In this document: positions 1,052 through 62,986 of the stretch, piece by piece
Numbering within the stretch: the stretch's first letter is position 1
Layout: each line of letters opens with the position of its first letter
Source of the DNA: a virus
DNA: 64,000 nucleotides
Direction: 5' to 3' (one strand)
Virus record (IMG/VR): IMGVR_UViG_3300038455_000036
Coordinates: 6,038-70,037 of that record
Translations under genes and position numbers: made by a program
Notes under the pieces: generated by a model
What the model saw: only the letters and a program-made list of their open reading frames with translations
Databases searched by the model: none
What the model was told of the DNA's origin: nothing

Positions 1052-2311
1052 TTGAAAATTATGGAATTAACTAAAGTAATGAAATTTGAAATATATTCAG
1101 AAAATAAGGAAATATATAAATTATTGCATGAGTTAATGTTTGAGACAAGGAAAATACAGAATAAAACTATTATGGCTATGTATGAATGGAGTGATTTTAA
1201 ATTTGCTTATAAAGAAAAACATGGAGTATATCCAAGGCCTGACGAAATACTAGAGAAGAAAAATAAAAAACAATTTTACGGAACTATACAAGGTTATATT
1301 GATTATTTTGCTAGAGAAATATTTTATAAAAATATGAGTGGTAATAGCAGTAATGCAATACAATCAGCAGTAAAATTATTCAATGACAAAGAAAAAGAAA
1401 TGCAAAAATGCATATGTACTTTGCCGTATTACCGCACTAGTAATCGTATTTTTTTAAAAAAATGTAATTTTAAACTTTACAAGCATGATAATAAATATTA
1501 TATTGATATTGGTCTTTTATCGACTAAATATAAAAATGAATTAGAATTAGATTCTGGAAGAGTTATTTTTAATATGAAGATTGGCGATAACACACAAAGA
1601 ACTATTATTAAAAGGGTATTAGATGGCGAATATTCAATAGCAGAAAGTCAATTAATTTATAATAAAAGACTAAAAAAATTCTTTATATATTTGTCATACA
1701 GTTTTAATCAGAAAGTTTTTGCGAAATGTGATAATATATTAGGAATTGACTTAGGTATTAAATACCCTTTATACATAGCATTAAAAGATAGTTTAAAAAG
1801 ATGGAAGATAAACGGTGGAGAAATAGAGGCCTTTAGAAAACAGGTAGAAAAAAGAAGATATTTAATGCGAAAACAAAGATTAGTAGCGTCTAACAGGTCG
1901 AAAGGTCGAAATAAAATGTTAAAACCTGTTACTGATATAGGCGATAAAGTGGCACGTTTTAGAGATGCGATTAATCATAGATATTCTAAGTTTGTTATAG
2001 ACATTGCTAGAAAAAATAATGTAGACGAGATTGTGATGGAAAAACTAGAAGGAATAAGCAATAATAATTTATTCCTAAAAGATTGGAGTTACTACGATTT
2101 ACAGCAAAAAATAAAATATAAAGCTGAAATGGTAGGAATAAAAGTAACATTTATAAACCCTGCATATACAAGTCAAACATGTTCACATTGTGGCCATGTT
2201 GCCAAAGAAAATAGGCCAGAACAGGAAATATTTAAATGTCAATCATGTGAATTTGAAGAAAATGCGGATTATAATGCCGCTGTTAATATAGCTAATAAAA
2301 CTGTTGTTTAA
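1052..2311 (+). CDS. cas12f1: Miniature type V-F CRISPR effector, Cas12f1 (AsCas12f1/C2c10-like, TnpB-derived), 419 aa
   Basis: RuvC-I GIDLG, RuvC-II VMEKL, RuvC-III NADYNAA and CxxC..CxxC zinc finger all intact. Blocks EWSDFKFAYKEKHGVYP, GGEIEAFRKQVEKRR and WSYYDLQQKIKYKAE closely resemble AsCas12f1 as remembered. An array is adjacent. The true start may be ATG 1061. Confidence 0.88.
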   Translation: MKIMELTKVMKFEIYSENKEIYKLLHELMFETRKIQNKTIMAMYEWSDFKFAYKEKHGVYPRPDEILEKKNKKQFYGTIQGYIDYFAREIFYKNMSGNSSNAIQSAVKLFNDKEKEMQKCICTLPYYRTSNRIFLKKCNFKLYKHDNKYYIDIGLLSTKYKNELELDSGRVIFNMKIGDNTQRTIIKRVLDGEYSIAESQLIYNKRLKKFFIYLSYSFNQKVFAKCDNILGIDLGIKYPLYIALKDSLKRWKINGGEIEAFRKQVEKRRYLMRKQRLVASNRSKGRNKMLKPVTDIGDKVARFRDAINHRYSKFVIDIARKNNVDEIVMEKLEGISNNNLFLKDWSYYDLQQKIKYKAEMVGIKVTFINPAYTSQTCSHCGHVAKENRPEQEIFKCQSCEFEENADYNAAVNIANKTVV

Positions 2312-4224: not shown

Positions 4225-5331
4225 TTAATCTATGCTAAAATGCTTTATTTGCTCAATTCCAATTCCTTTTAAAGCCTTTTCCTGCAAGTCAGGTATCATA
4301 TGACTATAGGTATCAAGCGTTATTTTTACAGATGCATGACCTAGTCGTTCGCTTACAACTTTAGGATGTATATTGTTTCTCAATAACCACGTAGCGTGAT
4401 AATGTCTAAGAGACTTAAAAGAATAATTCTCATTCATCTCTAATTTTCGTATAATCTTTTTAAAAGTCTTGCTGATATTTTCCCCCTGCAATGGTGACCC
4501 ATCTTCATGCACCAATAAAAAATTATTTTCCTGCCAATTCAATCTATTTTTCATTTTATTTATTTGTCTTTGCTTCAAATACTCAATTATAGGCTTTTCA
4601 GTACCTTCTATCAATGGTATTTGTCTCTTACTTGTACGTGTTTTTAAATCGTCTAACTTGTAAACACCGTCTACACGCTGATACTGCATTCTTAAATTCA
4701 ATCTTTTATTCTTAATATCAAAATCCTCAACTTGTAACCCTGCTATTTCGCTCAATCTCATTCCGGTAATACTGCAAATATAAATCGCAATATAGCAAGA
4801 ATAATCTTTAGAAAGTTTTAATATCTCTCTCAATTCGTCGTCGCTTGGGATATATATTTCTGTATATGCTTTACTTGGTGGTGTAACAGCATAGCATGGG
4901 TTATACTTCAAATATTCATGCAATACAGCATGTTTAAAAGCTTCGCTAATTATACGATGTATTTGTAATACAGTAGTTGGAGATAATTCACCGCTACTAA
5001 CCTTGTCTATATAAAAACTGCTTATGTGTGCAGGTTTTAATTTAGACAATTTATGGTGTCCTAATTTTGGTATAACATGTAAATCTAATAATTCAAAATA
5101 TCTTTGCCGAGTACGTTCCGCAACAGATATATTAACGTACTCGTCATACCATTTAACAAGATATTCCTTTACAGTTATATCTCTATCAACAGCATGTAAA
5201 CTTTTTTCTTTGTATTCAATAGCCGCCGCTTCTGCTTCTTTTCTGCTTTTAAAACCGCTCAAATATACTTGATTACCGTCTTCATCATAAAATCTTATTG
5301 CTATTCCTTTTTTTAATTTTATAATCTGCAT
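4225..5331 (-). CDS. int: Phage tyrosine integrase
   Basis: TGMRLSEI, KSLRHYHAT, RLGHAS..TLDTYSH catalytic motifs; SAM-like N-terminal domain; adjacent to att. Confidence 0.95.
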   Translation of the reverse strand: MQIIKLKKGIAIRFYDEDGNQVYLSGFKSRKEAEAAAIEYKEKSLHAVDRDITVKEYLVKWYDEYVNISVAERTRQRYFELLDLHVIPKLGHHKLSKLKPAHISSFYIDKVSSGELSPTTVLQIHRIISEAFKHAVLHEYLKYNPCYAVTPPSKAYTEIYIPSDDELREILKLSKDYSCYIAIYICSITGMRLSEIAGLQVEDFDIKNKRLNLRMQYQRVDGVYKLDDLKTRTSKRQIPLIEGTEKPIIEYLKQRQINKMKNRLNWQENNFLLVHEDGSPLQGENISKTFKKIIRKLEMNENYSFKSLRHYHATWLLRNNIHPKVVSERLGHASVKITLDTYSHMIPDLQEKALKGIGIEQIKHFSID

Positions 5332-6945: not shown

Positions 6946-7194
6946 GTGATTACATTGAGTAATAGACTTAATGTTAGTTACATCAAATTTATAGTTAGAA
7001 ATGTTACTGCAACACTTAGTCACGAGGGATTAAAGCCCAGTGAATCAGCAGTAACAATAAATAGACAATTTCTTGAGGGGAAGATTACGAGTAAAGAAGC
7101 AATAGACAAAATAAAAATGATTTACATTGGGGGTAAAAGTAATGGCAGACCAAATAAAAAAAATAGAATACAAGTATTTTCAAGTACCAAATGA
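6946..7194 (+). CDS. VbhA-family antitoxin-like protein (no Fic partner seen)
   Basis: NVTATLSHEGLKPS...FLEGKITSKEAI contains the (S/T)xxxE(G/N) inhibitory motif. Confidence 0.7.
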   Translation: MITLSNRLNVSYIKFIVRNVTATLSHEGLKPSESAVTINRQFLEGKITSKEAIDKIKMIYIGGKSNGRPNKKNRIQVFSSTK

Positions 7195-8164
7195 CATATT
7201 TGAACTAAGTTTAAAACCTATTGAAATAGCTGTTTATATGTATCTTGTACGATGTGGAAATAATTCAACTGCATTTCCTAGCTATTCAACAATTGGTAAA
7301 AAAGTAAGTATATCTAGGGATTGTGCCATTAATACAGTTAAAAAATTAATAGAAAAAAAACTAGTAATCAAACATGAAAGAACAAAGGATATTAAGAAAA
7401 AGAAGGATCAAAAAATTGTTGCTATTCATGATAGTAATATCTATGAGGTCGTTGTAAATCTTGATAGTTTAGTCGTTGAGAACGACCAGGGTGGTAATCC
7501 TCAACGACTAGGGGTAGTCGTTGAGAACGACCAGGGTGGTAATCCTCAACGACTAGGGGTAGTCGTTGAGAACGACCAGGGTGGTAATCCTCAACGACTA
7601 GGGGTAGTCGTTGAGAACGACCCTAAGAATAACTATATTAAAAAGAACTATGAAGAAGAACTAAAAGAAGAAGAACTATTTAAGAATATTTCTTCTTCGC
7701 AACAAAAAAATGAACCTGATAATCAACAATCTTTTTCTGTTGAATCAAAAGATTCAACGAGCAAAGAAGATAAGCCCAAGAAACCAAAGAAAGTTACTAT
7801 TTTTAGTCCTGAATCAGTTGAGTTAAGAGCAAGTAAATATTTATTTGAGAAAATGTGTGAGAATAATCCCAATGCAAAAGTTCCGGATTTCCAAAAGTGG
7901 GCAGATTATATAAGGCTTATGATTGAGCAAGATAAAAGAGATCCAAAATTAATTGCAAAAGTAATTGAGTTTAGTCAAAAAGATGATTTCTGGAAAGCAA
8001 ATATTTTAAGTACTAAGAAACTGAGAGAAAAATATGAACAACTTTATTTAAAAATGAATAGTCAGGTACCACAAAATAATAAAAAGTCTGAATTAGACAA
8101 AATGAAAAATGTTTATGAAATGGCAAAAAAGCTAGATGAAGAAAGAAAAAGGAGGAATATGTAA
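7127..8164 (+). CDS. Phage replication initiator (N-terminal wHTH, internal iterons)
   Basis: AFPSYSTIGKKVSISR HTH; C-terminal DDFWKANILSTKKLREKY. Likely start ATG 7142. Confidence 0.88.
   Translation: MGVKVMADQIKKIEYKYFQVPNDIFELSLKPIEIAVYMYLVRCGNNSTAFPSYSTIGKKVSISRDCAINTVKKLIEKKLVIKHERTKDIKKKKDQKIVAIHDSNIYEVVVNLDSLVVENDQGGNPQRLGVVVENDQGGNPQRLGVVVENDQGGNPQRLGVVVENDPKNNYIKKNYEEELKEEELFKNISSSQQKNEPDNQQSFSVESKDSTSKEDKPKKPKKVTIFSPESVELRASKYLFEKMCENNPNAKVPDFQKWADYIRLMIEQDKRDPKLIAKVIEFSQKDDFWKANILSTKKLREKYEQLYLKMNSQVPQNNKKSELDKMKNVYEMAKKLDEERKRRNM
7470..7622. repeat. Replication-origin iterons: 3.4 x 45-bp perfect tandem repeat inside the initiator gene
   Basis: TAGTCGTTGAGAACGACCAGGGTGGTAATCCTCAACGACTAGGGG at 7470, 7515 and 7560, partial at 7605. 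Each unit contains the inverted repeat TAGTCGTTGAG/CTCAACGACTA. Confidence 0.9.
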
Positions 8165-15548: not shown

Positions 15549-16079
15549 ATGATTGAGTTAGATGGAATGAAGTTTTATAAAGACAATAAAGGATACTACA
15601 GAACAGCAAAAATTAAAAATAGTGAACGAATCAGATTACATGTATACATTTACGAGAAGGCAAACAATATTAAAGTGCCTAAAGATTATGACATACATCA
15701 CAAAGATCTTAACAAAAGTAACAACGAACCGTCGAATTTAGCAATGATGACGCATTCGGAACACAGAAAATTGCATAGTATAGGCAAAAAACACAAACTT
15801 TCAGAAGAAACTAAGTTAAAAATGAGTGAGTCTAAAATAGGTAACAAAAATGCATTAGGTCATAAACACTCAGAAGAAACTAAATTAAAAATGAGTAAAT
15901 CTAAAAAAGGTTGTAAATGTTGGAAGGCTAAGTTAGACGATCATAAAGTGTGTATAATCAAAAATTTAATAGCTCGAGGTTTCAAAAATTTAGAAATAGC
16001 CAAGATATTTGACGTTGATAGACACACCATTAGCCATATAAGACACAATAAAACGTGGAAACATGTAAAACAAATATAA
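15549..16079 (+). CDS. HNH homing endonuclease with NUMOD3 repeats
   Basis: DIHHKDLNKSNNEPSNL; two SEETKLKMS repeats; C-terminal HTH. Confidence 0.88.
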   Translation: MIELDGMKFYKDNKGYYRTAKIKNSERIRLHVYIYEKANNIKVPKDYDIHHKDLNKSNNEPSNLAMMTHSEHRKLHSIGKKHKLSEETKLKMSESKIGNKNALGHKHSEETKLKMSKSKKGCKCWKAKLDDHKVCIIKNLIARGFKNLEIAKIFDVDRHTISHIRHNKTWKHVKQI

Positions 16080-17883: not shown

Positions 17884-18453
17884 ATGCTTAAACTAAATAA
17901 TGGAGAATGGTTTGACAGCGATAATCAATTAGAAAATGCAATAAATATGAGACTTTGTAGGGCATGCGAATATTTAGCTAAAGGATATACAAAATGTATA
18001 GGGTGTTATATTGGTAAAAAAGAGTTTTTTAGTAAAGCAAAAATACAAATAAATGATAACAATAATAAAATAATTACAAATAAAGGAGATAAGAAGATGA
18101 ATAAATATTATGAAATTGCAAAGGTATGTTTTGAATTAGTCGTAAAAATAAGAAAATTAAACAACGAAAAGGAAGTTGATCTAAACGAAACATTTGATAC
18201 TATTTCAAAAGAAAGACAAAAATACCTATATGATAATATTGAGCATATTATTAAAAATCCTAATTTAACAGCAAAGGAAGAACATAATATTTGGATGAAA
18301 CCAAGGTTGGAAGATGGATGGGTATATGGTGAAAAGACAGATAGAAAAAACAAGATACACAATTGTTTGGTACCATTTGAGGATTTGAACTTTTATCAAA
18401 AATTAAAAGATCACTTAGTGATAGAAACTGTAAAAATGTATTTTGGATTATAA
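17884..18453 (+). CDS. RyR-domain protein (internal RBS and in-frame ATG at 18097)
   Basis: EHNIWMKPRLEDGWVYGEKTDRKNKIHNCLVPFEDL...QKLKD is the RyR repeat signature. Confidence 0.75.
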   Translation: MLKLNNGEWFDSDNQLENAINMRLCRACEYLAKGYTKCIGCYIGKKEFFSKAKIQINDNNNKIITNKGDKKMNKYYEIAKVCFELVVKIRKLNNEKEVDLNETFDTISKERQKYLYDNIEHIIKNPNLTAKEEHNIWMKPRLEDGWVYGEKTDRKNKIHNCLVPFEDLNFYQKLKDHLVIETVKMYFGL

Positions 18454-19068
18454 TAATTTGGCGGAGGGCGTGAAGTCCTCCAGAAAGGATTTGAAAAATG
18501 GATGAATGTGAAAAATGCGGAAGTAAAAATATTTATATGACAGTATCATTGATGTTTAAAATACCTGCAAAATATGAAGGGCATATTACAAAGAAAGTTT
18601 TGACAATGAAAGAAACGGAACTTTTAGCGGCGAATTGGGATAGAGTAATATATCATTGTGGAGATTGTGGGAAAAAACAAAAAGGTTGGGAGGATGATGG
18701 AAATTAACACCAAAATAATTATAGAATTAATATTAATTACAATTATTTATAGTTTTATGGGTTTTGGAATATTGATTATACTGTTATTATTTAAAAATAG
18801 GAAAGGATGATGGAAATGATTGATGTTTATGGTTTATCAGTAAATGAAATATCATGTATACATGATGATTTAGAAATTTTGCAAGAGGATCTAGAAAATT
18901 TTTTAGATGATAAAAATATTGAAAAATTGATGAATGAAGTAAAATTAATGAAAATTAATGAGATTAAAAATTTTAATATTTTTTTCCATAATATTAGTAT
19001 AAAATATTTTAAAATGTCAAAGGATGAATTTGAAAATTTACCAGAATTTGATGGATGGTGAATAAATT

Positions 19069-19110
19069 AAAAAAGCAACTATCGAGAATTACTCGGCAGT
19101 TGCTTTTTTT
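19069..19110. terminator. Bidirectional intrinsic terminator
   Basis: AAAAAAGCAACT.TCGAG-AATTA-CTCGG.AGTTGCTTTTTTT. Confidence 0.85.
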
Positions 19111-19190
19111 GTATCAAAAAGGCTATAGGTGGAAATTACTTTGTTTCCGTCCCCTGACGGGGAATATAGCCTTTTTTAAATGTCATCACG
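19070..19190 (-). ncRNA. Small RNA containing a solitary type III-like CRISPR repeat (19143-19181)
   Basis: Minus strand reads ...TATTCCCCGTCAGGGGACGGAAAC. Promoter TTGACT-N17-TAAAAT at 19225-19197 (minus); terminator downstream. Confidence 0.72.
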
Positions 19191-19256
19191 AGGTATATTT
19201 TATATTAGTTTTTATAGAAAGTCAAAATATGTAACACTATTTTAACATAAAAGGTA

Positions 19257-19285
19257 TTGCAAAGTATTGTATAGTATTGTATAAT
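19257..19285 (+). promoter_or_regulatory. sigmaA promoter overlapped by three GTATTG direct repeats
   Basis: TTGCAA-N17-TATAAT; the repeats could be sites for the RHH-like protein at 19780. Confidence 0.7.
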
Positions 19286-19325
19286 GAATATATCAAATAA
19301 ATAAATTTTACGGAGGAATGAGATT

Positions 19326-19727
19326 ATGAAAAAGACAAATATTGATGGAATTATTGAACAATTACAAGAGATAGGAAAAACAAGCGTAATAAATATTGAT
19401 AATTTAGGTGAGATCATGACGGAGTTAGAAGAATTAGGATATATTACAGAATTATCACCAGATACCGATTATCTTGTTTTAAAGAACAGAATAAGAGCAA
19501 TAGGTATTTACAATAGCGAATCAAAATTTACAAAGACTGATGATAACAATTGGGAATTTTATATACCACGAGCAAATAGAAGTTGGACAGTATTGGACGA
19601 AGAAATAAACGATATTTTGGATAGATGGATATATGATACAAATGAGCCGATTGATTTAAACAGTGATACAGAGGAAGATGATATAAAAGCTATTAAAAAA
19701 TGGTTAAAAAATAGGGATGAGATATAA
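19326..19727 (+). CDS. Hypothetical acidic protein
   Basis: GGAGG RBS; first gene after the promoter. Confidence 0.6.
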   Translation: MKKTNIDGIIEQLQEIGKTSVINIDNLGEIMTELEELGYITELSPDTDYLVLKNRIRAIGIYNSESKFTKTDDNNWEFYIPRANRSWTVLDEEINDILDRWIYDTNEPIDLNSDTEEDDIKAIKKWLKNRDEI

Positions 19728-19779
19728 AACAAAATTAAAAAAGTTATGGAGGTCATTGACCTCCTGAAAGGGTGATGAT

Positions 19780-20184
19780 ATGAAAAAGGCAGTTACTTAT
19801 AAGTTAGATCAGCAAGTGTTAGACATAATTGATAAAATGGCAGAAGAAAAAAAATGGTCTAAGGTTGCTATAATCGAAACATCTGTTAAGGAGTTTTATG
19901 AGAAAAATAAAGTTGAAAATAAACAACAAGAAGCTCAAAAAAGCACAATTAAAGTCGGTGATAAGTATTTTAAAGTTACTATGTATACATCGGTTGAGAT
20001 TGGAGAATGTGGAGATATTGGAATAGGTATCGACAGAATTTACGCCGATGAAGATATAAAATTTGAGGAATTTATTTATAAAAAAGGACAGCTGATATAT
20101 GACAATGATTCAGAAGATGAAAATCTAAGCAATATAAATAAAACGATTCTTGTATATCAAAATTATGATGATATACCTGATTGA
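19780..20184 (+). CDS. Ribbon-helix-helix (CopG-like) N-terminal domain protein
   Basis: MKKAVTYKLDQQVLDIIDKMAEEKKWSKVAIIE. Confidence 0.65.
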   Translation: MKKAVTYKLDQQVLDIIDKMAEEKKWSKVAIIETSVKEFYEKNKVENKQQEAQKSTIKVGDKYFKVTMYTSVEIGECGDIGIGIDRIYADEDIKFEEFIYKKGQLIYDNDSEDENLSNINKTILVYQNYDDIPD

Positions 20185-20456
20185 AAAAGGTTTGGCAGTG
20201 CCTTAACTGCCAGAAGGGTAGGATATTATGAACGATATATTAAAAAACGCTTTAGAGGAATTGAAAGACAAAGGAGTTAATGATTATGCTAAAATGGGAA
20301 ATGTCGAGATACTAAAATTAGCATTAGAAAATACCGTTTTAGCGGTAGACAATTTAAACGAAAGGCTGACAAAAGCTGAGACTGAAATTGTAAGTTTGAG
20401 ATTTGAAAATAATTTATTGAAAAATGATATCGAAAAATTGAAGGAGGATAAATAAG

Positions 20457-21401
20457 ATGAATAGAATGATTAAAGTATTCACACACACAGATTTAGATGG
20501 AATTAGTTGTGCGATTTTGGCAAAGATGGTTTATAAAGATTTGGTTGATATTGAATTTGTAAATTACAATGATGTTGACCAAAAAATTCTAAATTACATT
20601 GAAGAGAATGAAAAAGATCGTAAATTTAGATTTTGTTATATTACTGATATTTCAGTTAATGAAACAACTGCAAAAAAAATTAACGAGGAAAATGAAATGA
20701 GTATAAATTATTATGGAGATATGTGCTTTCAATTGATTGATCATCACAAAACGGCTGACTATCTAAATAAGTATTCATGGGCAGAGGTAGAGTCAGAAAG
20801 AGAAGAAGATGGAAAAATAAAATTAATGTCAGGAACAAACTTGCTATATGAAAATCTATTATATCATAAACTAATTTCTGAAAGTTATGCGTTAAATGAA
20901 TTTACAAATTTAGTTAGAATGTATGATACATGGGAGTGGAAAACATATGGCGGAACGGTAGTCGGACAAATGGCAAAGGATTTAAATGATATACTCTATA
21001 TTATTGGCAGAGATGATTTTATTAATTCATATGTTGAACAAATAGTCAGTTTAGGAGAAATGTTCAGTTTTAAATTAATAGAACTACATACAGCATTGTT
21101 GAAATATAAGAGACAAGAAATAGACTTTTATATCAATAAGAAATTAGAACAAGTGAAAGTAATAGATCGAGTTGCTTTTGTGGTAGCAGATAGCAATATA
21201 TCAGAATTAGGCAATAAAATTTGTGAGACTGTAGATTGTGATTATTGTGCAATCTATACAGGATTTAATATGAGTTTGCGTAGTATAGGAGATTTCGATG
21301 TATCTGAGATAGCCAAAAAGCATGGTGGTGGTGGACATAAAAATGCGGCTGGAATGCCATGTGTTGGATTAGAAGAATTATTTAAAGTATTTAATATATA
21401 A
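20457..21401 (+). CDS. DHH/DHHA1 phosphoesterase (oligoribonuclease-like)
   Basis: THTDLDG, ITDIS, IDHH, SLRS, GGGGHKNAAG. Confidence 0.9.
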   Translation: MNRMIKVFTHTDLDGISCAILAKMVYKDLVDIEFVNYNDVDQKILNYIEENEKDRKFRFCYITDISVNETTAKKINEENEMSINYYGDMCFQLIDHHKTADYLNKYSWAEVESEREEDGKIKLMSGTNLLYENLLYHKLISESYALNEFTNLVRMYDTWEWKTYGGTVVGQMAKDLNDILYIIGRDDFINSYVEQIVSLGEMFSFKLIELHTALLKYKRQEIDFYINKKLEQVKVIDRVAFVVADSNISELGNKICETVDCDYCAIYTGFNMSLRSIGDFDVSEIAKKHGGGGHKNAAGMPCVGLEELFKVFNI

Positions 21402-21460
21402 TCGGAACGGGTTCGCCCGTTCACCAGATTTGACCTACTGGTGCTGATGAGATAGGTTGA
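21401..21460 (+). ncRNA. Type II hammerhead ribozyme candidate (core variant GGAA)
   Basis: ATC-GGAA-CGGG(TTCG)CCCG-TT-CACCAG(loop)CTGGTG-CTGATGA-GAT, with a loop I/3' tail pseudoknot TTGACCT:AGGTTGA. Confidence 0.75.
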
Positions 21461-21474
21461 AGGAGGGATAGAAA

Positions 21475-21744
21475 ATGAATATGATTATAATTATAGTTAG
21501 CATAATATTATACATAATGGCTTCAATACTACTATTTAAGCAAAAAAAATTTGAAAAAATAGTATCGAACATTGATGGAGTTGATATACTACACCCAAAA
21601 TGGTATTGGATTACAACGTGGGGAATATATATATTATCTTTAATAGGATTTTGCGTTATATCGCCGATAATTTTTGTAGTTGCTATATTTACAATCGGAT
21701 TGATCGCAATGATAGAAAATGCGTTAGAGTGGGCAAGACCATAA
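21475..21744 (+). CDS. Small membrane protein
   Basis: Two to three hydrophobic segments; GGAGGG RBS. Confidence 0.6.
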   Translation: MNMIIIIVSIILYIMASILLFKQKKFEKIVSNIDGVDILHPKWYWITTWGIYILSLIGFCVISPIIFVVAIFTIGLIAMIENALEWARP

Positions 21745-28457: not shown

Positions 28458-29222
28458 GTGAATATATTGGAACATATATATAGAAATGCTAGGAAAAAAG
28501 GAAGAGAGAGAAAAGAAAGAGAAGAAAAATTACCTCCAAAGCAAGAGTTATTTTGTGAATTATATGTAAAGAGTTTTAATGCAACAATGTCATATGTAGA
28601 AGCTTTTGACTGTAAAGATAAAAACAGAGCAGCAGTGGAGGGGTGTAAATTACTAAAAAATTCTAAAGTTAATAATAGGGTTAAATATCTTAAAGAACTT
28701 AAAAGACAATCGATAATGTTAACTAAAGATGATGTTGTTGAGAGACGTATGAAAATAGCCTTTTCAGACATGACAGACTTTGTCGAATGGGGACAGGAAG
28801 AAATAAATGTAATTGGCAGATTTGGACCTATTGAAATAAAAAATCCTATTACCGGGGAAAAAGAAATATTAAAAGAAAAAACGAATGTTGTTAGGTTTAA
28901 AGATAGCAACTTAGTTGATGGGGGATTAATATCTGAAATAAAAACAGGTAAAGACACGTCAATTAAACTTGAAGATAGGCAAAAGGCTTTAGATTGGTTG
29001 GCTAAGTATTTCCTTATGAATCCTCTTGATAAACATAAAATTGATTTTGATAATAAGAAATTTGAACAGGATAAACAGGAACATGCTGATAAGATGGCTA
29101 TGGAAAAGGAAAAAACAAGTAATGATACAGGATTACCACCAGTTGTATTTATAGAAAATAGTGATAAATATTTAGAATGGAAAAAGAGAAGGGATTTAGA
29201 AAATGGGTTGCCTGAAACTTGA
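28458..29222 (+). CDS. terS: Terminase small subunit
   Basis: LPPKQELFCELYV.SFNAT..Y, LLKN.KV, IKLEDRQKAL.WL. Confidence 0.88.
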   Translation: MNILEHIYRNARKKGRERKEREEKLPPKQELFCELYVKSFNATMSYVEAFDCKDKNRAAVEGCKLLKNSKVNNRVKYLKELKRQSIMLTKDDVVERRMKIAFSDMTDFVEWGQEEINVIGRFGPIEIKNPITGEKEILKEKTNVVRFKDSNLVDGGLISEIKTGKDTSIKLEDRQKALDWLAKYFLMNPLDKHKIDFDNKKFEQDKQEHADKMAMEKEKTSNDTGLPPVVFIENSDKYLEWKKRRDLENGLPET

Positions 29223-30522
29223 TCCGATGGACTTCGTTAATGATAATTTTGTCGAATGGTGGTATGAGTTAAGTAATAAATATTTATTCAATGTTTTAAA
29301 AGGCGGTCGTAATAGTGCTAAAAGCACACATGTAAGTTTTAAAATAATCTATGACATGATGAAATATAGAGTTAATTCTTTATGCATAAGGCGAGTTGCA
29401 AATACTTTATCGACAAGTATGTTTGAGCAATTAAAAGAAGCAACTTGTATCATGAATGTTGATCATTATTGGAAAGATTATAAAAGTCCTTTGAGACTTG
29501 TATATAAACCAACTGGGCAGGAGATTCTATTTAGAGGTGCTGACGATAGTAGTAAAATTAAATCAATCAAGACAAGTAAATTTCCGCTTGCTTTTATGTG
29601 GGTTGAAGAATTGGCAGAATTTAGAATGGAAGAGGAATTACAAACTATTATTGATTCTATTATCAGGGCTGAGTTAAGAAATGGATTAAAATATAAGATT
29701 TATTATACTTATAATCCACCAAAGCTGAGGACTAGTTGGGTTAATAAAAAATTTAATTCTCAATTCATTGGAAGCAATACAATAGTTCATCATTCGGATT
29801 ATACACAAAATCCCCATGTATCTATGCAATTTAAAATAGAAGCCGAAGAAGTAAGGAATAGGAATGAAAATAGATATAGATGGTTGTATCTTGGTGAAGC
29901 AATCGGTGGTGGTATAGTACCATTTAGTAATTTAGTGTTTCGCACTATTACAGATGATGAAGTTAAAATATTTGCTAATATAAGGCAAGGTCTTGACTTT
30001 GGTTCTACTGCACCAACACATTTTAGCAGGCAACATCTAGACAATAAGAGAGATATACTTTACTGTCTGGATGAAATTAGAGGAATAAAACTTAAAGATC
30101 AGCCTTTGTATAACAAAATTGTTGAAAAAAATTACAATGATTTTAGAGTTAAAGGCGATTCCGAAGATGGAAATAGAATAGACAGTTTAAAGGCACTGGG
30201 ACTAAAAATTGTAGGAGCGAAAAAAGGACCTGGGAGCGTCGAATTTGGTTTGGAATGGCTTGATTCTTTAAAAGAAATAGTTGTTGATGTAAAAAGAACT
30301 CCTCATACTGCTAGAGAGTTTGAAAATGCCGATTATAAATATGATAGATTTGGCGAACCATTGCCAGAACTAGACGGAGAAGACCACGCAATTGACAGCA
30401 TTCGCTATAGTTGCGAGGATGACATGATAAAAAGGGGTAACGCAAAGCCTCAGGGTGTAAAAAACTATATGCCACAAGCTGATGGTATTACATATAACGG
30501 CAATGTTAATGATTGGGGTTGA
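29203..30522 (+). CDS. terL: PBSX-family terminase large subunit
   Basis: KGGRNSAKS Walker A, WVEE Walker B, YNPP, GLDFG, DHAIDSIRY. Confidence 0.95.
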   Translation: MGCLKLDPMDFVNDNFVEWWYELSNKYLFNVLKGGRNSAKSTHVSFKIIYDMMKYRVNSLCIRRVANTLSTSMFEQLKEATCIMNVDHYWKDYKSPLRLVYKPTGQEILFRGADDSSKIKSIKTSKFPLAFMWVEELAEFRMEEELQTIIDSIIRAELRNGLKYKIYYTYNPPKLRTSWVNKKFNSQFIGSNTIVHHSDYTQNPHVSMQFKIEAEEVRNRNENRYRWLYLGEAIGGGIVPFSNLVFRTITDDEVKIFANIRQGLDFGSTAPTHFSRQHLDNKRDILYCLDEIRGIKLKDQPLYNKIVEKNYNDFRVKGDSEDGNRIDSLKALGLKIVGAKKGPGSVEFGLEWLDSLKEIVVDVKRTPHTAREFENADYKYDRFGEPLPELDGEDHAIDSIRYSCEDDMIKRGNAKPQGVKNYMPQADGITYNGNVNDWG

Positions 30523-34044: not shown

Positions 34045-35826
34045 ATGGCAACAACATTAAAACAAGAATACGGAAGTGTAGGGCGTAGTAATTCCGCATT
34101 ATTCCAATATAACCTAGCAACAGATGAATATTTATCAACCCTCACATGGCCTAATGACATAAAAATATACGATAAGATGGAGCGGTCTGACAGTCAAGTA
34201 AAAGCCACATTGTTATTGTTAGAATTACCTTTACGCTCGACAAATTGGTTTATTCAGCCTAAAGATAAGAGTGGCAAGGCTCAGCAGATAGCGGATTTCA
34301 TAGAGGAAACATTATTCAATAATATGTTTTCTTTTGATGAGTTATTGAAGAACATTTGCACGATGTTTGCGTTTGGGCATAGCGTTTTTGAAAAGGTATT
34401 CGAGGTCAAAAATGGATTTTTACAGTGGAAAAAGTTTGCCATCCGTCCACAAAGCACTATATATGACCTGATATATGATGATGTAGGAGATATATCGAGT
34501 ATACAACAATATCTAATCAATAAATGTTTTACAATTGTTGATATTCCTATTGAAAAGTTATTATTGTTTTCGCACGACATTAAACAAGGTGATTATAGAG
34601 GGCGAAGCGTTTTAAGAAGTGCATATAAGCATTGGTCAATAAAAGAGTTCTTGTATAAAATAACAAATATAGGAATTGAAAGAAATTTTGTCGGAACTCC
34701 TACAGTTAAACTGCCACCTAATGCAAATGATGATGATATTACATTGGCAAAAAGTATTGTAACATCACTTAGAAGTAACGAAAATGGCGGTGTAACTATA
34801 CCGGAAGACTTTTTATTGGAAATGTTCGAGGGCAAGCGTACCCTAATGGATGTAATGCCATATATAGAGTACCATGACAAACTTATATCTAGGTCTATAT
34901 TAGCTCAATTCATCAATCTTGATTCTAAAGGCGGCTCTTATGCATTAGGACAGGGGCAAATGGATTTATTTTTAATGTTGCTTAATGCAAGTGGTAATTA
35001 TATCTGTAATATAATCAATACCCATGCTGTCAAACAGCTTGTTGATTATAATTTTGCATCTGACTTATACCCGGAATTGAAATTTAAACCTTTGGGCAGT
35101 GAAAAAATAATTGATAGTATTAAGTTATTAACAGATGGAAAAATAGTTATACCTGATAAGGATTTAGAAACGTTTGTTCGTGAGTTATTGAAATTGCCCG
35201 AAAAGGCAAAAAAATCTTATACGGACCAGGCAAATAAAATTGAAAATGATAATCAAAATCAAAATAAAGGGACAAAAACCGAGGATGATTTAAATGATTC
35301 TACCGAAGAATTGCAAAATGAAAATGGCAAGGTTGAAGATCCGCAATCTAAAGATATGAAAAATAAAAATCCTGATGAGACTAAAAAGATGAGTGAAGAT
35401 TACAGCAAATATAATGATCTTAATAAAAAAATTGACGAGCTTGAGAATGAGTTTGAATCAGGATGTAAGACAATTATACAAAAGCAATTAAAAGACCTAT
35501 CTACAAGGGTTAAAAATACCGATTTAAGCAAATTATCAGAAATGCAAGTAAAATACAAGGGTGAGTTAACTAATTTTGTATTTAACGCACTTATCAAAGC
35601 ATACAAGGAAGGTAGAACGCAGATTTTAGACGAATTGAATCTGAAAGCTGATAAAAACGACATAAAGGATATAGATGTAATCAAGGCTAAGGCTGGTATT
35701 GTGGCAAATAATATCAGTGAGAGAGTTAAAACAAGGTTTTTATCGAAGTTTATGAACACTTATAGTGATGGTATGGACATAGAGAAGGTAAGTAAACAGG
35801 CTCTTAAATCTGTATTAGGTAATTAG
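34045..35826 (+). CDS. Portal protein (Mu gp29/DUF935-like)
   Basis: FGHSVFEKV, GRSVLRSAY..W..K, IERNFVGTP, GGSYALG. Confidence 0.88.
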   Translation: MATTLKQEYGSVGRSNSALFQYNLATDEYLSTLTWPNDIKIYDKMERSDSQVKATLLLLELPLRSTNWFIQPKDKSGKAQQIADFIEETLFNNMFSFDELLKNICTMFAFGHSVFEKVFEVKNGFLQWKKFAIRPQSTIYDLIYDDVGDISSIQQYLINKCFTIVDIPIEKLLLFSHDIKQGDYRGRSVLRSAYKHWSIKEFLYKITNIGIERNFVGTPTVKLPPNANDDDITLAKSIVTSLRSNENGGVTIPEDFLLEMFEGKRTLMDVMPYIEYHDKLISRSILAQFINLDSKGGSYALGQGQMDLFLMLLNASGNYICNIINTHAVKQLVDYNFASDLYPELKFKPLGSEKIIDSIKLLTDGKIVIPDKDLETFVRELLKLPEKAKKSYTDQANKIENDNQNQNKGTKTEDDLNDSTEELQNENGKVEDPQSKDMKNKNPDETKKMSEDYSKYNDLNKKIDELENEFESGCKTIIQKQLKDLSTRVKNTDLSKLSEMQVKYKGELTNFVFNALIKAYKEGRTQILDELNLKADKNDIKDIDVIKAKAGIVANNISERVKTRFLSKFMNTYSDGMDIEKVSKQALKSVLGN

Positions 35827-52911: not shown

Positions 52912-53889
52912 ATGAAAAAAATATTTAGTTTACTGTTAATAATGACATTTATATGCATTATGACAATTGGGGTATATTGCCAAATAGATAAATATGGCGG
53001 TACCTTTGTAACAAAAGAAGTTAAAACTCAGGAATATATTCCTGCAAAAGCGGAAATTCCTGAAAAATCAACATGGAGTGCGGTAGAAAAAGTTGATAAA
53101 AGAATTGCCGACCCGACTCAAGTATTAACAAATTACGATATTACAGCTAATGCAACTTTTAACGAGACAGATTCAACATTGGATTATGTTATTACAGTAA
53201 AGGGGAAAATTGATGCAACATCATCCATTGATAAAACTTTTACAGATAAATTAAACAAAGAACCTGGTGAACAATCAATAACGGTTACATGGGAACTTAA
53301 TAGTCAGACTAAAAAATTAACATGTGTATTCGATGTGACTAAAACAGTAGTGCAAGAACACGAAAATGCAGTACCAGAACAGCCAGGAATAAAAGAAATA
53401 CATGTAATTGGCTATAAATTTGTAAAGGGAAAATACAAAGGTTGTGAAGTGAAGTTTAGACCAACAATTATAAAAAATACAATAACTAAGACATCTAATG
53501 GTGTAAAAAATAGCGAAGTTACTAATGATTATAAGAAACTTTTGAGCATGCGACCATTTAAACCTAATACAACAAGAGTATGGTCAAAGGGAAAATGGTT
53601 ATACTTGAGATGTGACTGGACTATTCCCACACCGAAACCAACACAAAGTGAGTCTACTTCTCCATCGATATCACCGAGCGAGTCTATTTCTCCAAGTGAA
53701 TCTACAGAGCCAACAATAGACCCAAGTGTAGACCCGACAGTTAATCCGACTAATAATGTAGTTTATGGAAATAATAGTTTGCCAAAAACTGGCGAAAGTG
53801 AAAATGTAGCTTTAGTTATCGCTGGTATCTTAGTTGTGGCAGTTGGCATATTGACCATAGTAAAAATATGTAAACCTAATAATAGTTGA
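52912..53889 (+). CDS. Sortase-anchored (LPXTG) cell-surface protein, lysogenic-conversion candidate
   Basis: Signal peptide, Ser/Pro/Thr linker, LPKTG followed by a TM helix. Confidence 0.85.
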   Translation: MKKIFSLLLIMTFICIMTIGVYCQIDKYGGTFVTKEVKTQEYIPAKAEIPEKSTWSAVEKVDKRIADPTQVLTNYDITANATFNETDSTLDYVITVKGKIDATSSIDKTFTDKLNKEPGEQSITVTWELNSQTKKLTCVFDVTKTVVQEHENAVPEQPGIKEIHVIGYKFVKGKYKGCEVKFRPTIIKNTITKTSNGVKNSEVTNDYKKLLSMRPFKPNTTRVWSKGKWLYLRCDWTIPTPKPTQSESTSPSISPSESISPSESTEPTIDPSVDPTVNPTNNVVYGNNSLPKTGESENVALVIAGILVVAVGILTIVKICKPNNS

Positions 53890-54627: not shown

Positions 54628-55182
54628 TTACTTAACATAAGTTCCTTGAACTCCACGTTTTTGTCTATTATTAGTCCTCTTCCTTAACCACATCAACGAT
54701 TCTTCTAATTTAGTTATAGCACAAGCATTTTCACGACATCTAAAATCGCTATTCTGAAAATTTTCAAGTCTGTTTATGCATATTGCAATAAGGTCTTCCA
54801 TAAAGATTCCGTTTAATCCTGTTTCTTTAATAGCACCTTCTTGAAAGTGTACTCCACATAAAATATCACCTTCGATACCTCTAATAATATAGTTATGAGG
54901 TGAATTAAAAGTATTGTTATCATGCTCAATGAATGTATTATCTGTTGTTATAAGATCACTCTTTATCGTTTTTAAATCTAATCCTGATTCGATATTAAGT
55001 TTCTTATAAGCTTTTTCAAACATTATCTTAGGGCTCCATGAAACATAGTTATCAGAATATCTTACTTTGTATCCTTCCATATCTTCAATTGTATTATCTG
55101 TTTTACCATATTTCTCAATTTCAAAAGTTTTCTTACTCATTTTTTCTGCTTCAATCATTTTTGTGCCTATGTATATATCCAT
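54628..55182 (-). CDS. tad1: Tad1-family anti-defence sponge with an extra N-terminal domain
   Basis: PHNY...FQEGAIKETGLNG..MEDLI.I...RL..FQ.S.F.CRENACAITKLEE.LMWL.KRT..R..RGV.GT matches the Tad1 signature. AAGGAG RBS precedes ATG 55182. Confidence 0.85.
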   Translation of the reverse strand: MDIYIGTKMIEAEKMSKKTFEIEKYGKTDNTIEDMEGYKVRYSDNYVSWSPKIMFEKAYKKLNIESGLDLKTIKSDLITTDNTFIEHDNNTFNSPHNYIIRGIEGDILCGVHFQEGAIKETGLNGIFMEDLIAICINRLENFQNSDFRCRENACAITKLEESLMWLRKRTNNRQKRGVQGTYVK

Positions 55183-55238
55183 TTCAATCTCCTTTAAATT
55201 TAATATAGCAACCATTTTAATTTTCTAAAAATTATTTG

Positions 55239-59870: not shown

Positions 59871-60557
59871 ATGACGAATAACACGAAAAAACTATATTTA
59901 GCGAGATTAAAAAAGTTTTTTGATTTTGAAAAAAATGAAATTTATTTTGAAAAAGTCGAAAATAAATCAAAAAATTATATTTGCCAAATTCGGGCAGCTG
60001 TTAAGTATTATTTTAAGTCTAAAGGAATGTTTTACCATGATGACAAATTAAATAATATGTTTTATAATGCTAGTAAAGGCAAAAAAAAGAAAAAAGAAGA
60101 ATTGCAATTAAAAACTGTTATACACAAAATCAACGCAATTCGCAATAAAAAGTTAAAAACTTTGTTCAAATTGCAGATGATATCAGGATTAAGAGTTGAG
60201 GAAATATCAAAATTGGATTTAAAAAAAGATGTTGAATACATAAGTAATAATAGACTTGTTTTGTTTGTACACGGCAAGGGAGATAAGGAGAGAAAAATTA
60301 AAACTTTGCCAGATAAGTATGTTTTTGAAAATCTTAAATTAATTGATAAACCATACTCACACAAAACAATAATAAATAAATGTTGTCAATATGGTATGAG
60401 TACCCATGATTTCAGAAGGGTATTCGCTCAGATTGTTTATTATAGAACTGGTGACAAAGAATTAGTAAGGAAACTATTGGGTCATGAAAAAATAAAAACA
60501 ACGGAAATTTATTTAAAACGGGATATAAATTTTTATGGTACGAAATGGGATTTTTAG
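59871..60557 (+). CDS. Tyrosine recombinase
   Basis: SGLRVEEI, GKGDKER, HDFRRVFA, LLGH...TTEIY. Confidence 0.9.
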   Translation: MTNNTKKLYLARLKKFFDFEKNEIYFEKVENKSKNYICQIRAAVKYYFKSKGMFYHDDKLNNMFYNASKGKKKKKEELQLKTVIHKINAIRNKKLKTLFKLQMISGLRVEEISKLDLKKDVEYISNNRLVLFVHGKGDKERKIKTLPDKYVFENLKLIDKPYSHKTIINKCCQYGMSTHDFRRVFAQIVYYRTGDKELVRKLLGHEKIKTTEIYLKRDINFYGTKWDF

Positions 60558-62980: not shown

Positions 62981-62986
62981 AGCTCA

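What the first reader, a model, noticed from the sequence alone, without database searches (positions are those of the whole stretch)
19069..19225. Solitary type III-like CRISPR repeat with dedicated promoter and terminator (RNA anti-CRISPR candidate)
Seen on the minus strand: TTGACT-N17-TAAAAT, then ATTTAAAAAAGGCTATATTCCCCGTCAGGGGACGGAAAC, a 32-nt spacer-like tail and a strong terminator. I found only one copy, and it is unrelated to the Cas12f repeat. Known: a CCCC/GGGG hairpin followed by ACGGAAAC is the Cas6 site and 8-nt 5' handle of type III-A (Csm) repeats, and phage solitary repeat units can act as Racrs. Also seen: the tail pairs back with the repeat 5' part (AAAAAGGCTATA/TATAGCCTTTTT, 12 bp) and with the handle (GGAAA/TTTCC), forming a three-way junction. 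Inference: a Cas6/Csm decoy or a crRNA-like regulator, located among early accessory operons.
Basis: partly seen in the sequence, partly recalled or inferred. Interest (0 to 1): 0.8.

Follow-up and report, generated by a model that had tools for sequence, protein, structure and literature searches.

The report
Phage-borne lone type III-A CRISPR repeat
A temperate phage from a wetland carries one copy of the working end of a widespread type III-A CRISPR repeat inside a small, tightly folded RNA unit; it is most likely a decoy against host CRISPR immunity, a known kind of phage device that has not yet been proven for this CRISPR type.

Summary
On the minus strand at 19143-19162 lies CCCCGTCAGGGGACGGAAAC, once in the window and in its 70-kb virus record. 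The chance expectation is 7e-10. The same 20-mer is the 3' end of real CRISPR repeats in 21 genome loci and 31 metagenome loci. All 5 arrays I checked sit beside type III-A genes. Its last 8 nt equal the S. thermophilus III-A crRNA tag (PMC9297841). Only this half is repeat-like: the best match over 36 nt is 29. The unit lies in a 264-bp gap between plus-strand genes, behind a promoter-like site and before a two-way terminator, and it folds into a three-way junction.

Best reading (0.5): a Racr-type crRNA/Cas6 decoy. Untested here: transcription, host identity, Cas6 cutting, inhibition. It folds equally well on the plus strand, promoter-like sites are not enriched, and no covariation was seen.

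Solitary repeat units of type III in viruses are already catalogued (PMC10651486), and this scan has reported several on other DNA. I therefore class it as a new member of a known kind. The caged three-way junction is its one unusual feature.

The parts
19197..19225 (-). Promoter-like site: TTGACT (19225-19220), a 17-nt spacer, then TAAAAT (19202-19197). The predicted start is near 19190.
   Evidence: It matches 10 of 12 consensus positions. Such sites are not enriched here: 20 were found against 19.0 +/- 3.9 in shuffles. The two substitutions seen in variant contigs in this stretch (19193, 19208) fall outside both hexamers.
19165..19176 (-). P1 5' arm, AAAAAGGCTATA. It occupies the place of the 5' half of a repeat but is not repeat-like.
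   Evidence: It pairs 12 of 12 with 19127-19116. Over the 16 nt upstream of the core, the best match to any array repeat is 9 of 16.
19143..19166 (-). Repeat-derived core. The hairpin is TCCCC (19163-19159), loop GTCA, GGGGA (19154-19150). The 8-nt crRNA tag ACGGAAAC follows at 19150-19143. The predicted Cas6 cut lies between 19151 and 19150.
   Evidence: 20 of 20 nt are identical to CRISPR repeats in loci L002-L022 and L059-L089. 24 nt are identical to the L008/L009 repeat. The tag equals the S. thermophilus III-A tag (PMC9297841). There are weak partial Rfam matches: CRISPR-DR18 at 20.2 bits (gathering 50) over model positions 15-37 of 37, and CRISPR-DR10 at 15.7 bits (gathering 39). The cut site is inferred, not tested.
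19111..19142 (-). 32-nt tail. TTTCC (19135-19131) pairs with GGAAA of the tag (P3). TATAGCCTTTTT (19127-19116) is the P1 3' arm and ends in a U run.
   Evidence: Folds. No target was found. The tail plus terminator matched only itself and 12-13-nt noise in 744 kb of held DNA. A 22-mer of the tail had 0 matches in viral contigs.
19066..19110 (.). Two-way intrinsic terminator: an A run, an 18-nt inverted repeat and a T run. It ends both the plus-strand gene 18807-19061 and the predicted minus-strand RNA.
   Evidence: Inverted repeat 19069-19086 / 19092-19109. It forms a stem on both strands. The scan lists its inner hairpin, 19082-19096, on the plus strand.

Best explanation
The 264-bp gap between two plus-strand early genes holds a small minus-strand transcription unit of about 120-125 nt (about 19190 to about 19066). 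Its RNA carries the Cas6-recognition hairpin and the 8-nt 5' tag of a very widespread family of type III-A CRISPR repeats. I read it as a Racr-type RNA anti-CRISPR.

Proposed mechanism:
1. Host Cas6 binds the hairpin and cuts between G19151 and A19150.
2. This yields a crRNA-like fragment that starts with ACGGAAAC but has no useful guide.
3. The RNA then either ties up Cas6, because the 12-bp P1 stem keeps the two cleavage products annealed, or loads into Csm complexes as a dead-end crRNA.
4. Either way it competes with the host's phage-targeting crRNAs.

The only RNA complementary to its 'guide' is the phage's own plus-strand read-through transcript. That transcript carries the full anti-tag, which in type III systems blocks Cas10 activation, so the unit should be harmless to the phage.

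Shown here: the sequence identity, the link of the repeat family to type III-A, the solitary intergenic position, and the predicted fold, promoter and terminator. Inferred: transcription, Cas6 cutting, binding to Csm, and inhibition.
For: **1. It is a real repeat end.**
- The 20-mer occurs once in the window and record, with an expected chance count of 7e-10.
- It is the invariant 3' end of 50 distinct 36-nt repeat variants in the genome and metagenome loci. Many stand in arrays with a period of about 72 nt.

**2. The family is type III-A and Cas6-processed.**
- 5 of 5 arrays examined (L008, L009, L017, L010, L065) lie next to Csm1, Csm3, Csm4, Csm5, Csm6, Cas1 or Cas2, all above the NCBIfam cut-offs.
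- A Cas6 match (E <= 0.001) is present in 4 of 5 of those genomes, and on the array's own contig in 3.

**3. The strand is right.**
- The tag ACGGAAAC reads 5'-3' on the minus strand and ends exactly where the Rfam CRISPR-DR partial matches end.
- A 10-of-12 promoter-like site lies 35 nt upstream, and a terminator lies 6 nt downstream of the junction.
- On the plus strand the junction lies behind a terminator, where little transcription is expected.

**4. It travels as a module.**
- Contigs from three other wetland runs carry the unit nearly unchanged.
- The core 19143-19162 is identical in 2 of 2 contigs that span it (X2 record 8, X4 record 20).
- X2 record 8 runs on unlike the window to the left of 19103.

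**5. It fits published precedent.**
- Phage solitary repeat units act as Racrs by binding Cas6f and Cas7f, and even a non-targeting crRNA lowers interference (PMC10651486 passages).
- Tag-PFS pairing blocks cOA and DNase activity (PMC9297841).

**6. The context is suggestive.**
- It sits back to back with the promoter of an operon that encodes an acidic 133-aa orphan protein (pI 4.3) and a protein with a weak N-terminal match to transcription regulators.
- This resembles the acr-aca neighbourhoods reported for racr candidates (PMC10651486 section 9).
Against: - **Host unknown.** No array with this repeat could be tied to this phage. 0 of 303 downstream-of-repeat 40-mers from the fetched arrays match the window with 24 or more letters.
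- **Only part of the repeat is present.** Just the 3' 20-24 of 36 nt are repeat-like. Rfam scores are far below gathering. Cas6 enzymes that need the 5' half would not bind.
- **The promoter is not statistically distinguishable from background**.
- **The fold does not pick a strand.** All helices are Watson-Crick, so the junction folds as well on the plus strand and is followed there by six T.
- **No covariation.** The variant contigs differ only by run lengths, a 3-nt insertion in the P3 region and two substitutions near the promoter. The fold therefore rests on thermodynamics alone.
- **P1 and P3 bury the tag and the 'guide',** which could hinder rather than help loading into Csm.
- **The downstream terminator may not be conserved.** Left of 19103 the X2 variant shows a different short hairpin that, in the 30 letters shown, has a T run only for the plus strand.
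- **No type III Racr has been tested** in the papers I read.
Confidence: 0.5

Rival explanations
1. Single-guide viral crRNA (a one-repeat 'mini-array'). Cas6 cuts the repeat and host nucleases trim the 3' end. The tag plus tail is then loaded into host Csm as a working guide against a competing phage, a plasmid or a host transcript.
For: Type III crRNAs need only the upstream repeat for their 5' tag, and their 3' ends are trimmed (PMC9297841 passages). From the cut site to the end of P1 is 35 nt, close to crRNA size. [quoted passage not shown]
Against: No protospacer was found. The tail matches only itself in 744 kb of held phage, host and metagenome DNA, and its 22-mer has 0 hits in viral contigs. 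17 of the first 27 tail nucleotides are paired within the RNA. That pattern is expected for a structural element, not for a captured spacer. The search space was small.
Confidence: 0.12
2. The plus strand is the functional one. The junction would be a second, back-up terminator of the upstream operon. Alternatively, read-through RNA carries an anti-repeat/anti-tag (the complement of the repeat end) that pairs with host pre-crRNA repeats or marks the transcript as 'self'.
For: The junction folds equally well on the plus strand (-26.3 kcal/mol, z -4.3). It is followed there by TTTTTT, and all neighbouring genes are on the plus strand. In the X2 variant the hairpin left of 19103 has a T run for the plus strand only, in the 30 letters shown. 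Earlier notes of this scan raised the same antisense reading for other phages.
Against: A terminator needs no 20-nt identity to a CRISPR repeat (expected count 7e-10). The junction lies downstream of a strong plus-strand terminator with a seven-T run, so little plus-strand RNA should reach it. The scan did not list the branched structure as a terminator. A single anti-tag would shield only one adjacent protospacer.
Confidence: 0.12
3. Non-functional relic: a piece of a host CRISPR array picked up by recombination and now decaying.
For: Only the 3' 20-24 nt survive. No relatives beyond near-identical variants were found to show long-term conservation.
Against: The surviving piece is exactly the functional hairpin plus tag, with 0 changes in 20 nt. 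It is framed by a perfect 12-bp stem, a promoter-like site and a terminator. It is unchanged in 2 of 2 variant contigs that span it, while the DNA to its left has been exchanged. A relic would be expected to keep some spacer or a second repeat.
Confidence: 0.15
4. Chance resemblance, or part of the 59-codon plus-strand ORF 19055-19234.
For: An ORF of 59 aa spans the region on the plus strand.
Against: The expected chance count is 7e-10. The ORF starts inside the stop region of the upstream gene, with no ribosome-binding site visible in the sequence, and it would be translated through two strong hairpins. I ran no homology search for it.
Confidence: 0.02

Closest known systems
Racr RNA anti-CRISPRs / viral solitary repeat units (RacrIF1-3, RacrIE1-2, RacrIC1, RacrVA1-3; Camara-Wilpert et al. 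2023, PMC10651486; abstract, section 9 and passages read)
   Same: One lone copy of a host-type CRISPR repeat. It is intergenic on a (pro)phage, has a predicted promoter of its own, keeps the Cas6 hairpin and the handle, and sits beside small orphan genes.
   Different: The nine tested Racrs are of types I-F, I-E, I-C and V-A; none is type III. Here only the 3' 20-24 nt of the repeat are kept, and they are locked into a three-way junction by a 12-bp stem. In type III, Cas6 is not a stable part of the effector and the tag lies 3' of the hairpin. The part that would act on the effector is therefore the downstream fragment, not the hairpin-bearing one.
Type III-A CRISPR repeats with the ACGGAAAC tag
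   Same: Identical hairpin and 8-nt tag, and the same strand sense.
   Different: It is solitary, with no spacer-repeat periodicity. The 5' half is replaced by sequence that pairs with the tail. No cas genes of type III lie nearby in the 70-kb record.
Viral CRISPR mini-arrays used in inter-virus conflict (as reviewed in PMC11656645, passages read)
   Same: A host-type repeat on a virus, followed by a spacer-length sequence.
   Different: Mini-arrays have two or more repeats and spacers that match related viruses. This unit has one repeat and no match.
Phage crRNA-like regulatory RNAs (Cracr/crlRNA; bioRxiv 10.1101/2024.10.29.618823, abstract in listing and two passages read)
   Same: A phage-encoded repeat-like RNA that engages host Cas proteins.
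   Different: Those RNAs guide DNA-binding type I effectors to cas or defence promoters through partial spacer matches. The text has no mention of type III. Type III effectors bind RNA, and no target was found here.
AcrIIIA1 protein-RNA anti-CRISPR (PMC11662646, abstract read)
   Same: Directed against type III-A, and RNA is involved.
   Different: AcrIIIA1 is a protein that binds Csm2 and associates with t(m)RNA fragments. It is not a repeat mimic.

Membership tests
Racr / viral solitary repeat unit (PMC10651486) | Lies in an intergenic region of a virus, prophage or plasmid | tested here: met
   It sits in a 264-bp gap between ORFs 18807-19061 and 19326-19727. The record is a virus record with an integrase, a terminase and a portal.
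Racr / viral solitary repeat unit (PMC10651486) | Matches a known CRISPR repeat in its Cas-binding part (hairpin and handle) | tested here: met
   20 of 20 nt are identical to repeats in 21 genome and 31 metagenome loci, and 24 nt to the L008/L009 repeat. The hairpin is predicted in the fold.
Racr / viral solitary repeat unit (PMC10651486) | High identity to the repeat over its whole length | tested here: not met
   The best match is 29 of 36, of which 20 are the core. Rfam CRISPR-DR18 scores 20.2 bits against a gathering score of 50. The threshold used by SRUFinder is not known to me.
Racr / viral solitary repeat unit (PMC10651486) | Not accompanied by other full or partial repeats | tested here: met
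   There is 1 match at up to 3 mismatches in the window and in the whole record.
Racr / viral solitary repeat unit (PMC10651486) | Host carries the cognate CRISPR-Cas subtype | not testable with these tools
   The host was not identified. There are only hints of a Gram-positive Bacillota host: an LPXTG anchor and terminase clusters.
Racr / viral solitary repeat unit (PMC10651486) | Expressed as a small RNA and inhibits the cognate system | not testable with these tools
   Only promoter-like and terminator-like motifs are available. This needs wet-lab assays.
Viral CRISPR mini-array | Two or more repeats flanking at least one spacer | tested here: not met
   There is a single copy.
Viral CRISPR mini-array | Spacer matches a related virus or other target | tested here: not met
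   No match in the DNA held or in viral contigs. The search space was limited.
Type III-A CRISPR repeat | The 3' terminal 8 nt form the crRNA 5' tag, preceded by the Cas6 hairpin | tested here: met
   ACGGAAAC lies at 19150-19143, right after the CCCC/GGGG hairpin. The tag is as published.
Type III-A CRISPR repeat | The same repeat family stands next to csm genes | tested here: met
   5 of 5 arrays examined. Cas6 is present in 4 of 5 genomes.
Type III-A CRISPR repeat | Regularly spaced copies (an array) | tested here: not met
   It is solitary.
Intrinsic terminator (plus-strand reading of the junction) | A stable G+C-containing stem directly followed by a U run | tested here: inconclusive
   On the plus strand P1 is followed by TTTTTT. 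However, the structure is branched, and the terminator scan did not list it.

The most novel reading that the evidence does not exclude
A type III-A-specific RNA anti-CRISPR that works as a caged Cas6 trap. The hairpin and tag are presented in a three-way junction, and its 12-bp closing stem keeps the two Cas6 cleavage products annealed. As a result Cas6 cannot release or hand over the tagged fragment, and host crRNA maturation stalls. This would be the first RNA inhibitor shown for type III. Its mechanism (product clamping) would differ from the aberrant Cas6f-Cas7f subcomplex of RacrIF1. Because the 20-nt core is invariant across arrays of many lineages, it could act on a broad range of hosts.
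Probability: 0.2. Interest if true: 0.7.

Novelty: new member of a known kind. Interest (0 to 1): 0.42.

Why it matters
Few inhibitors of type III CRISPR-Cas are known. The abstract of PMC11662646 counts three Acr families before AcrIIIA1, and none of the nine tested Racrs is type III (PMC10651486).

A working RNA decoy for Csm/Cas6 would add a new class of type III inhibitor. It could also serve as a simple off-switch for type III-based RNA knock-down and diagnostics.

This candidate is easy to test. It carries exactly the tag of the S. thermophilus system, which already works in E. coli (PMC9297841), and it is only about 125 nt long. The three-way junction suggests a design principle, clamping of Cas6 products, that mutagenesis can probe.

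If it proves inactive or a relic, it remains one more entry in the catalogue of viral solitary repeat units.

Tried and rejected
**Relatives of the phage or the unit**
- The exact 20-mer had 0 hits in viral contigs.
- blastn of 18000-21500 against 50,697 phage records gave none.
- The search for related loci with the DHH protein and with the 133-aa ORF gave none.
- The pattern GGCTATATTCCCCNNNNGGGGAC gave 2 viral loci (L096, L097). Both are G+C-rich stretches with no hairpin-tag unit, which I judged by eye to be coding, and I rejected them as chance.

**Host**
- Portal tblastn against phages gave at most 32% identity.
- Portal against 399 scored genomes of the class of G001 gave 6 matches at 29-31% identity, and no close prophage.
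- The atlas points only to Bacillota-type terminase clusters.
- The first 6.1 kb of the record hold further ORFs that I did not annotate.

**Spacers against the phage**
- 216 + 87 downstream-of-repeat 40-mers gave 0 hits with 24 or more matched letters. The output was cut, so I re-counted.

**Target of the tail:** none found.

**Expression**
- No RNA holder was listed. The 5 runs found are wetland DNA runs kept as contigs.
- Parts of the stretch without cover in X2-X4 say nothing.

**Rfam:** at gathering thresholds there is nothing at the locus.

**Similar caged architecture elsewhere**
- Among the single-copy sites folded, none has a comparable 12-bp closing stem. L035 has a 7-bp one.
- L039 shows a lone repeat end followed by a terminator-like hairpin and a T run.

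**Rough census of viral single-copy sites**
- There are 20 distinct sites among 36 loci.
- 7 of them lie outside any open frame of 80 or more codons.
- Several of the rest are G+C-rich stretches inside long open frames, which I took for chance matches.

**PADLOC:** among 10 neighbours there were only weak hits: a 15.8-bit Csx20-model hit for the 75-aa ORF 20228-20455 and two homing-endonuclease models for ORF 15549-16079. I gave them no weight.

**Literature**
- 'type III' + Racr + Cas6 + Csm returned 1 review.
- 'RNA anti-CRISPR' + III-A + repeat returned 5 papers, none a type III Racr.
- A search for the tag alone returned primer noise.
- I found no tested type III Racr in these searches. 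The supplementary lists of PMC10651486, which may already include this record because IMG/VR3 was searched, were closed, and I did not open them.
Full report
**What is there**

The window is bases 6038-70037 of a 70,037-base IMG/VR virus record, linear and estimated 85% complete. Its G+C content is 30.1%. It encodes:
- an integrase (4225-5331, minus strand);
- a PBSX-type large terminase (29203-30522);
- a Mu-like portal (34045-35826);
- a Cas12f1-like/TnpB protein (1052-2311).

It is therefore a temperate tailed phage or prophage. The finding lies in a 264-bp gap between two plus-strand ORFs, 18807-19061 and 19326-19727, and every sizeable neighbouring ORF is on the plus strand.

Read on the minus strand, the gap holds, in order:
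1. TTGACT-17 nt-TAAAAT at 19225-19197;
2. a short leader;
3. AAAAAGGCTATA at 19176-19165;
4. TT;
5. CCCCGTCAGGGGACGGAAAC at 19162-19143;
6. a 32-nt tail at 19142-19111;
7. an 18-nt inverted repeat between an A run and a T run, at 19110-19066.

**Is it more than chance?**

The 20-mer occurs once in the window at up to 3 mismatches, against 0 in 100 shuffles, and once in the whole record. With the window's composition the expected number is 7e-10.

The decisive result is the scan of public genomes. The exact 20-mer was found in 21 loci of the species-representative genome collection and in 31 metagenome loci. In many of them it recurs with a period of about 70-75 nt, always as the 3' end of a repeat of about 36 nt. 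Examples are uncultured Oscillospiraceae, Ruminococcaceae, Lachnospiraceae and other Clostridia, Thermosyntropha lipolytica, and activated-sludge and other metagenomes.

Across these loci there are 50 distinct 36-mers ending in the 20-mer. Their 5' 16 nt vary freely while the 3' 20 nt are fixed. I examined five arrays, and all five lie beside type III-A genes with scores above the NCBIfam cut-offs:
- L008: Csm4, Csm5, Cas1, Cas2, Csm6;
- L009: Csm6, Cas2;
- L017: Csm3, Csm4, Csm5;
- L010: Csm3, Csm4, Csm5, Csm6;
- L065: Cas1, Cas2, and Cas10/Csm1 at 685 bits.

A Cas6 family match (E <= 0.001) is present in 4 of 5 of the genomes searched. It lies on the same contig as the array in three of them, and two matches exceed the curated cut-off.

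The last eight letters, ACGGAAAC, are the published 5' tag of S. thermophilus type III-A crRNAs (PMC9297841, passage seen). So the phage element is a genuine copy of the hairpin plus tag of a large type III-A repeat family, in the sense orientation on the minus strand.

**What is not repeat-like**

Only the 3' part is conserved. The longest run of identity is 24 nt, with the L008/L009 repeat. Over 36 nt the best ungapped match is 29, which is 9 of the 16 upstream letters. Rfam gives only sub-threshold partial matches: CRISPR-DR18 at 20.2 bits against a gathering score of 50, over model positions 15-37 of 37 at 19143-19165; and CRISPR-DR10 at 15.7 bits against 39.

In place of the 5' half of a repeat, the phage has a sequence that pairs perfectly over 12 bp with the tail (19176-19165 with 19127-19116). 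The GGAAA of the tag can pair with TTTCC of the tail.

The minimum-energy fold is a three-way junction made of P1, the repeat hairpin, and a weak tag hairpin. For the 69-nt junction the energy is -25.3 kcal/mol with z -4.7, and for the 141 nt including the terminator it is -45.7 kcal/mol with z -7.3. In both cases 0 of 200 shuffles fold as well.

All pairs are Watson-Crick, so the complement folds just as well. The fold therefore says nothing about the strand.

**Which strand?**

Three things favour the minus strand:
- The sense orientation of the repeat end.
- A 10-of-12 promoter-like site with 17-nt spacing, 35 nt upstream.
- The position of the junction downstream of the strong plus-strand terminator (19069-19109, followed by seven T). 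Plus-strand transcription should mostly stop before reaching it.

Against over-reading this:
- Promoter-like sites are as common in shuffled sequence (20 found against 19.0 +/- 3.9).
- The terminator works on both strands.
- On the plus strand the junction is itself followed by six T.

No RNA data could be had (see Tried and rejected).

**Variants**

Logan contigs of three other wetland DNA runs carry the unit. X1 is probably the source sample and is not independent.
- X2 record 8 covers 19103-19342 with 1 substitution and 5 gap letters, then continues to the left of 19103 with unlike sequence.
- X4 record 20 covers 19133-19274.
- X3 record 15 covers 19158-19276.

The 20-nt core is unchanged in 2 of 2 contigs that span it (X2, X4). 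The differences are:
- one base fewer in the A run at 19172 (X2, X3, X4);
- one base more at 19115 (X2);
- AAT put in behind 19132, in the tail strand of the weak tag hairpin (X2, with the X4 loose end agreeing);
- substitutions at 19193 and 19208, which fall between or beside the promoter hexamers.

These contigs have depths of 2.5-3.2, so single differences may be errors. There is no compensatory change, so the fold gets no covariation support.

The switch to unlike sequence at 19103 suggests that the junction travels with the promoter region and the right-hand operon, not with the left-hand gene and its terminator.

**Mechanism**

Established points from papers read here:
- Type III-A pre-crRNA is cut in the repeat by Cas6, which leaves eight repeat nucleotides as the 5' tag. 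The 3' ends are trimmed (PMC9297841).
- Pairing of the tag with the sequence flanking the target blocks cOA synthesis and DNase activity but not RNA cutting.
- Phage solitary repeat units of types I-F, I-E, I-C and V-A inhibit their cognate systems. RacrIF1 binds Cas6f and Cas7f in an aberrant subcomplex, and even a non-targeting crRNA lowers interference (PMC10651486).

By analogy I infer the following. The minus-strand RNA is bound by host Cas6 and cut between 19151 and 19150. The resulting tagged fragment has no useful guide, and it competes for Cas6 and/or Csm subunits.

Two sub-variants cannot be told apart here:
- A decoy crRNA that fills Csm complexes.
- A Cas6 trap, in which P1 keeps the two products annealed.

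The only RNA complementary to the tail is the phage's own plus-strand read-through transcript. It carries the complete anti-tag, so it would not trigger Cas10.

I put 0.5 on this family of explanations. The rivals are:
- a working one-repeat guide (0.12; no target found);
- a plus-strand terminator or anti-repeat RNA (0.12);
- a relic of recombination with a host array (0.15);
- chance or a small ORF (0.02).

**Context**

The unit is back to back with the plus-strand promoter TTGCAA-17 nt-TATAAT at 19257-19285. That promoter is overlapped by three GTATTG motifs spaced exactly 10 bp apart.

The operon it drives begins with an acidic 133-aa orphan protein (pI 4.3; no Pfam, PHROG or PADLOC family). 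Next comes a 134-aa protein whose first ~45-70 residues weakly match PHROG transcription regulators (E 4e-4 and 6e-4). A DHH-DHHA1 phosphoesterase follows at 20457-21401.

Racr candidates are reported to lie near acr genes (PMC10651486 section 9), and a DHH-DHHA1 nuclease is known to degrade cA4 (PMC8284326 passage). These are leads, not evidence.

An LPXTG anchor in ORF 52912-53889 and the nearest terminase clusters point to a Gram-positive Bacillota host. That fits the taxa that carry this repeat family, but the host itself was not found. None of 303 candidate spacers from the fetched arrays matches the phage.

**Comparison and novelty**

The closest known kind is the viral solitary repeat unit, or Racr. 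That study searched IMG/VR3 and reports 2,103 viral SRUs covering all CRISPR types except VI. Type III SRUs are thus already catalogued, and this very record may be in their supplementary list, which I could not open.

None of the nine tested Racrs is type III, and my searches found no tested type III Racr.

This scan has already reported several lone type III repeats in other phages (e1-5873933, e1-4397155, e1-5818223, e1-5989406). I therefore class this one as a new member of a known kind.

It has two noteworthy traits. Only the hairpin-plus-tag half is retained, at 20 of 20 identity to a repeat end shared by arrays from many lineages. And it is caged in a three-way junction, which I did not see in the other single-copy sites folded.

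**Verdict**

The element is real and derives from a type III-A repeat, but its function as a decoy is plausible and untested. Interest 0.42.

Noticed in passing
window 1052-2311 and 2471-2753: A 419-aa protein carries a Cas12f1-like TNB domain (86 bits) and a weak OrfB_IS605 match. It is followed by five copies of a roughly 30-38-nt repeat spaced 47-67 nt apart. This is a phage-borne miniature type V-F-like or TnpB-derived array, with repeats unrelated to the type III unit.
   Followed up: partly
window 19254-19285 and ORFs 19326-19727, 19780-20184: Three GTATTG motifs spaced exactly 10 bp apart overlap the plus-strand promoter TTGCAA-17-TATAAT. The operon encodes an acidic orphan protein (pI 4.3) and a protein with a weak N-terminal match to transcription regulators. 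The layout resembles an acr-aca operon with its operator.
   Followed up: partly
window 20457-21401: A DHH-DHHA1 phosphoesterase (Pfam DHHA1 26.9 bits; PHROG 4771 E 4e-26) lies 1.2 kb from the repeat unit. A DHH-DHHA1 nuclease is known to degrade the type III messenger cA4 (PMC8284326). Whether this enzyme does so is untested.
   Followed up: no
window 54628-55215 (minus strand): A 195-aa ORF has a sub-threshold match to the Acb2/Tad1 hairpin domain (22.9 bits against a cut-off of 27, E 1e-4).
   Followed up: partly
window 62119-62844 and 62925-63060: A full-length DUF7873 protein (301 bits) is followed by an Rfam tRNA match of unusual length (136 nt, 34.5 bits). ARAGORN does not call it.
   Followed up: no
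window 7470-7622: A perfect 45-bp tandem repeat of 3.4 copies at 100% identity lies inside the DnaD/HTH_36-like ORF 7127-8164.
   Followed up: no
window 59871-60557 and 58735-59559: There is a second, short integrase-family ORF (C-terminal catalytic part only) and an FtsK/SpoIIIE-like ATPase near the right end.
   Followed up: no
L039 (IMG/VR contig), minus strand near 5484: Another virus contig has a lone copy of the repeat end (loop GTTA). It is followed after 10 nt by a long G+C-rich hairpin and a T run. This is an independent example of a lone type III-A repeat end with a terminator.
   Followed up: partly
L003 and L015 (one Roseburia contig), L072: There are lone copies of the same repeat end in bacterial DNA. 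Two on one Roseburia contig share nearly the same downstream sequence. One in L072 sits directly before a GAAAGGA...ATG translation start. These may be regulatory or Cas6-processed leaders.
   Followed up: no
window 19103 (variant contig of run X2): To the left of 19103 a related phage has unrelated sequence, ending in a different short hairpin with a T run on the plus strand. A mosaic joint therefore lies between the repeat unit and the terminator.
   Followed up: partly
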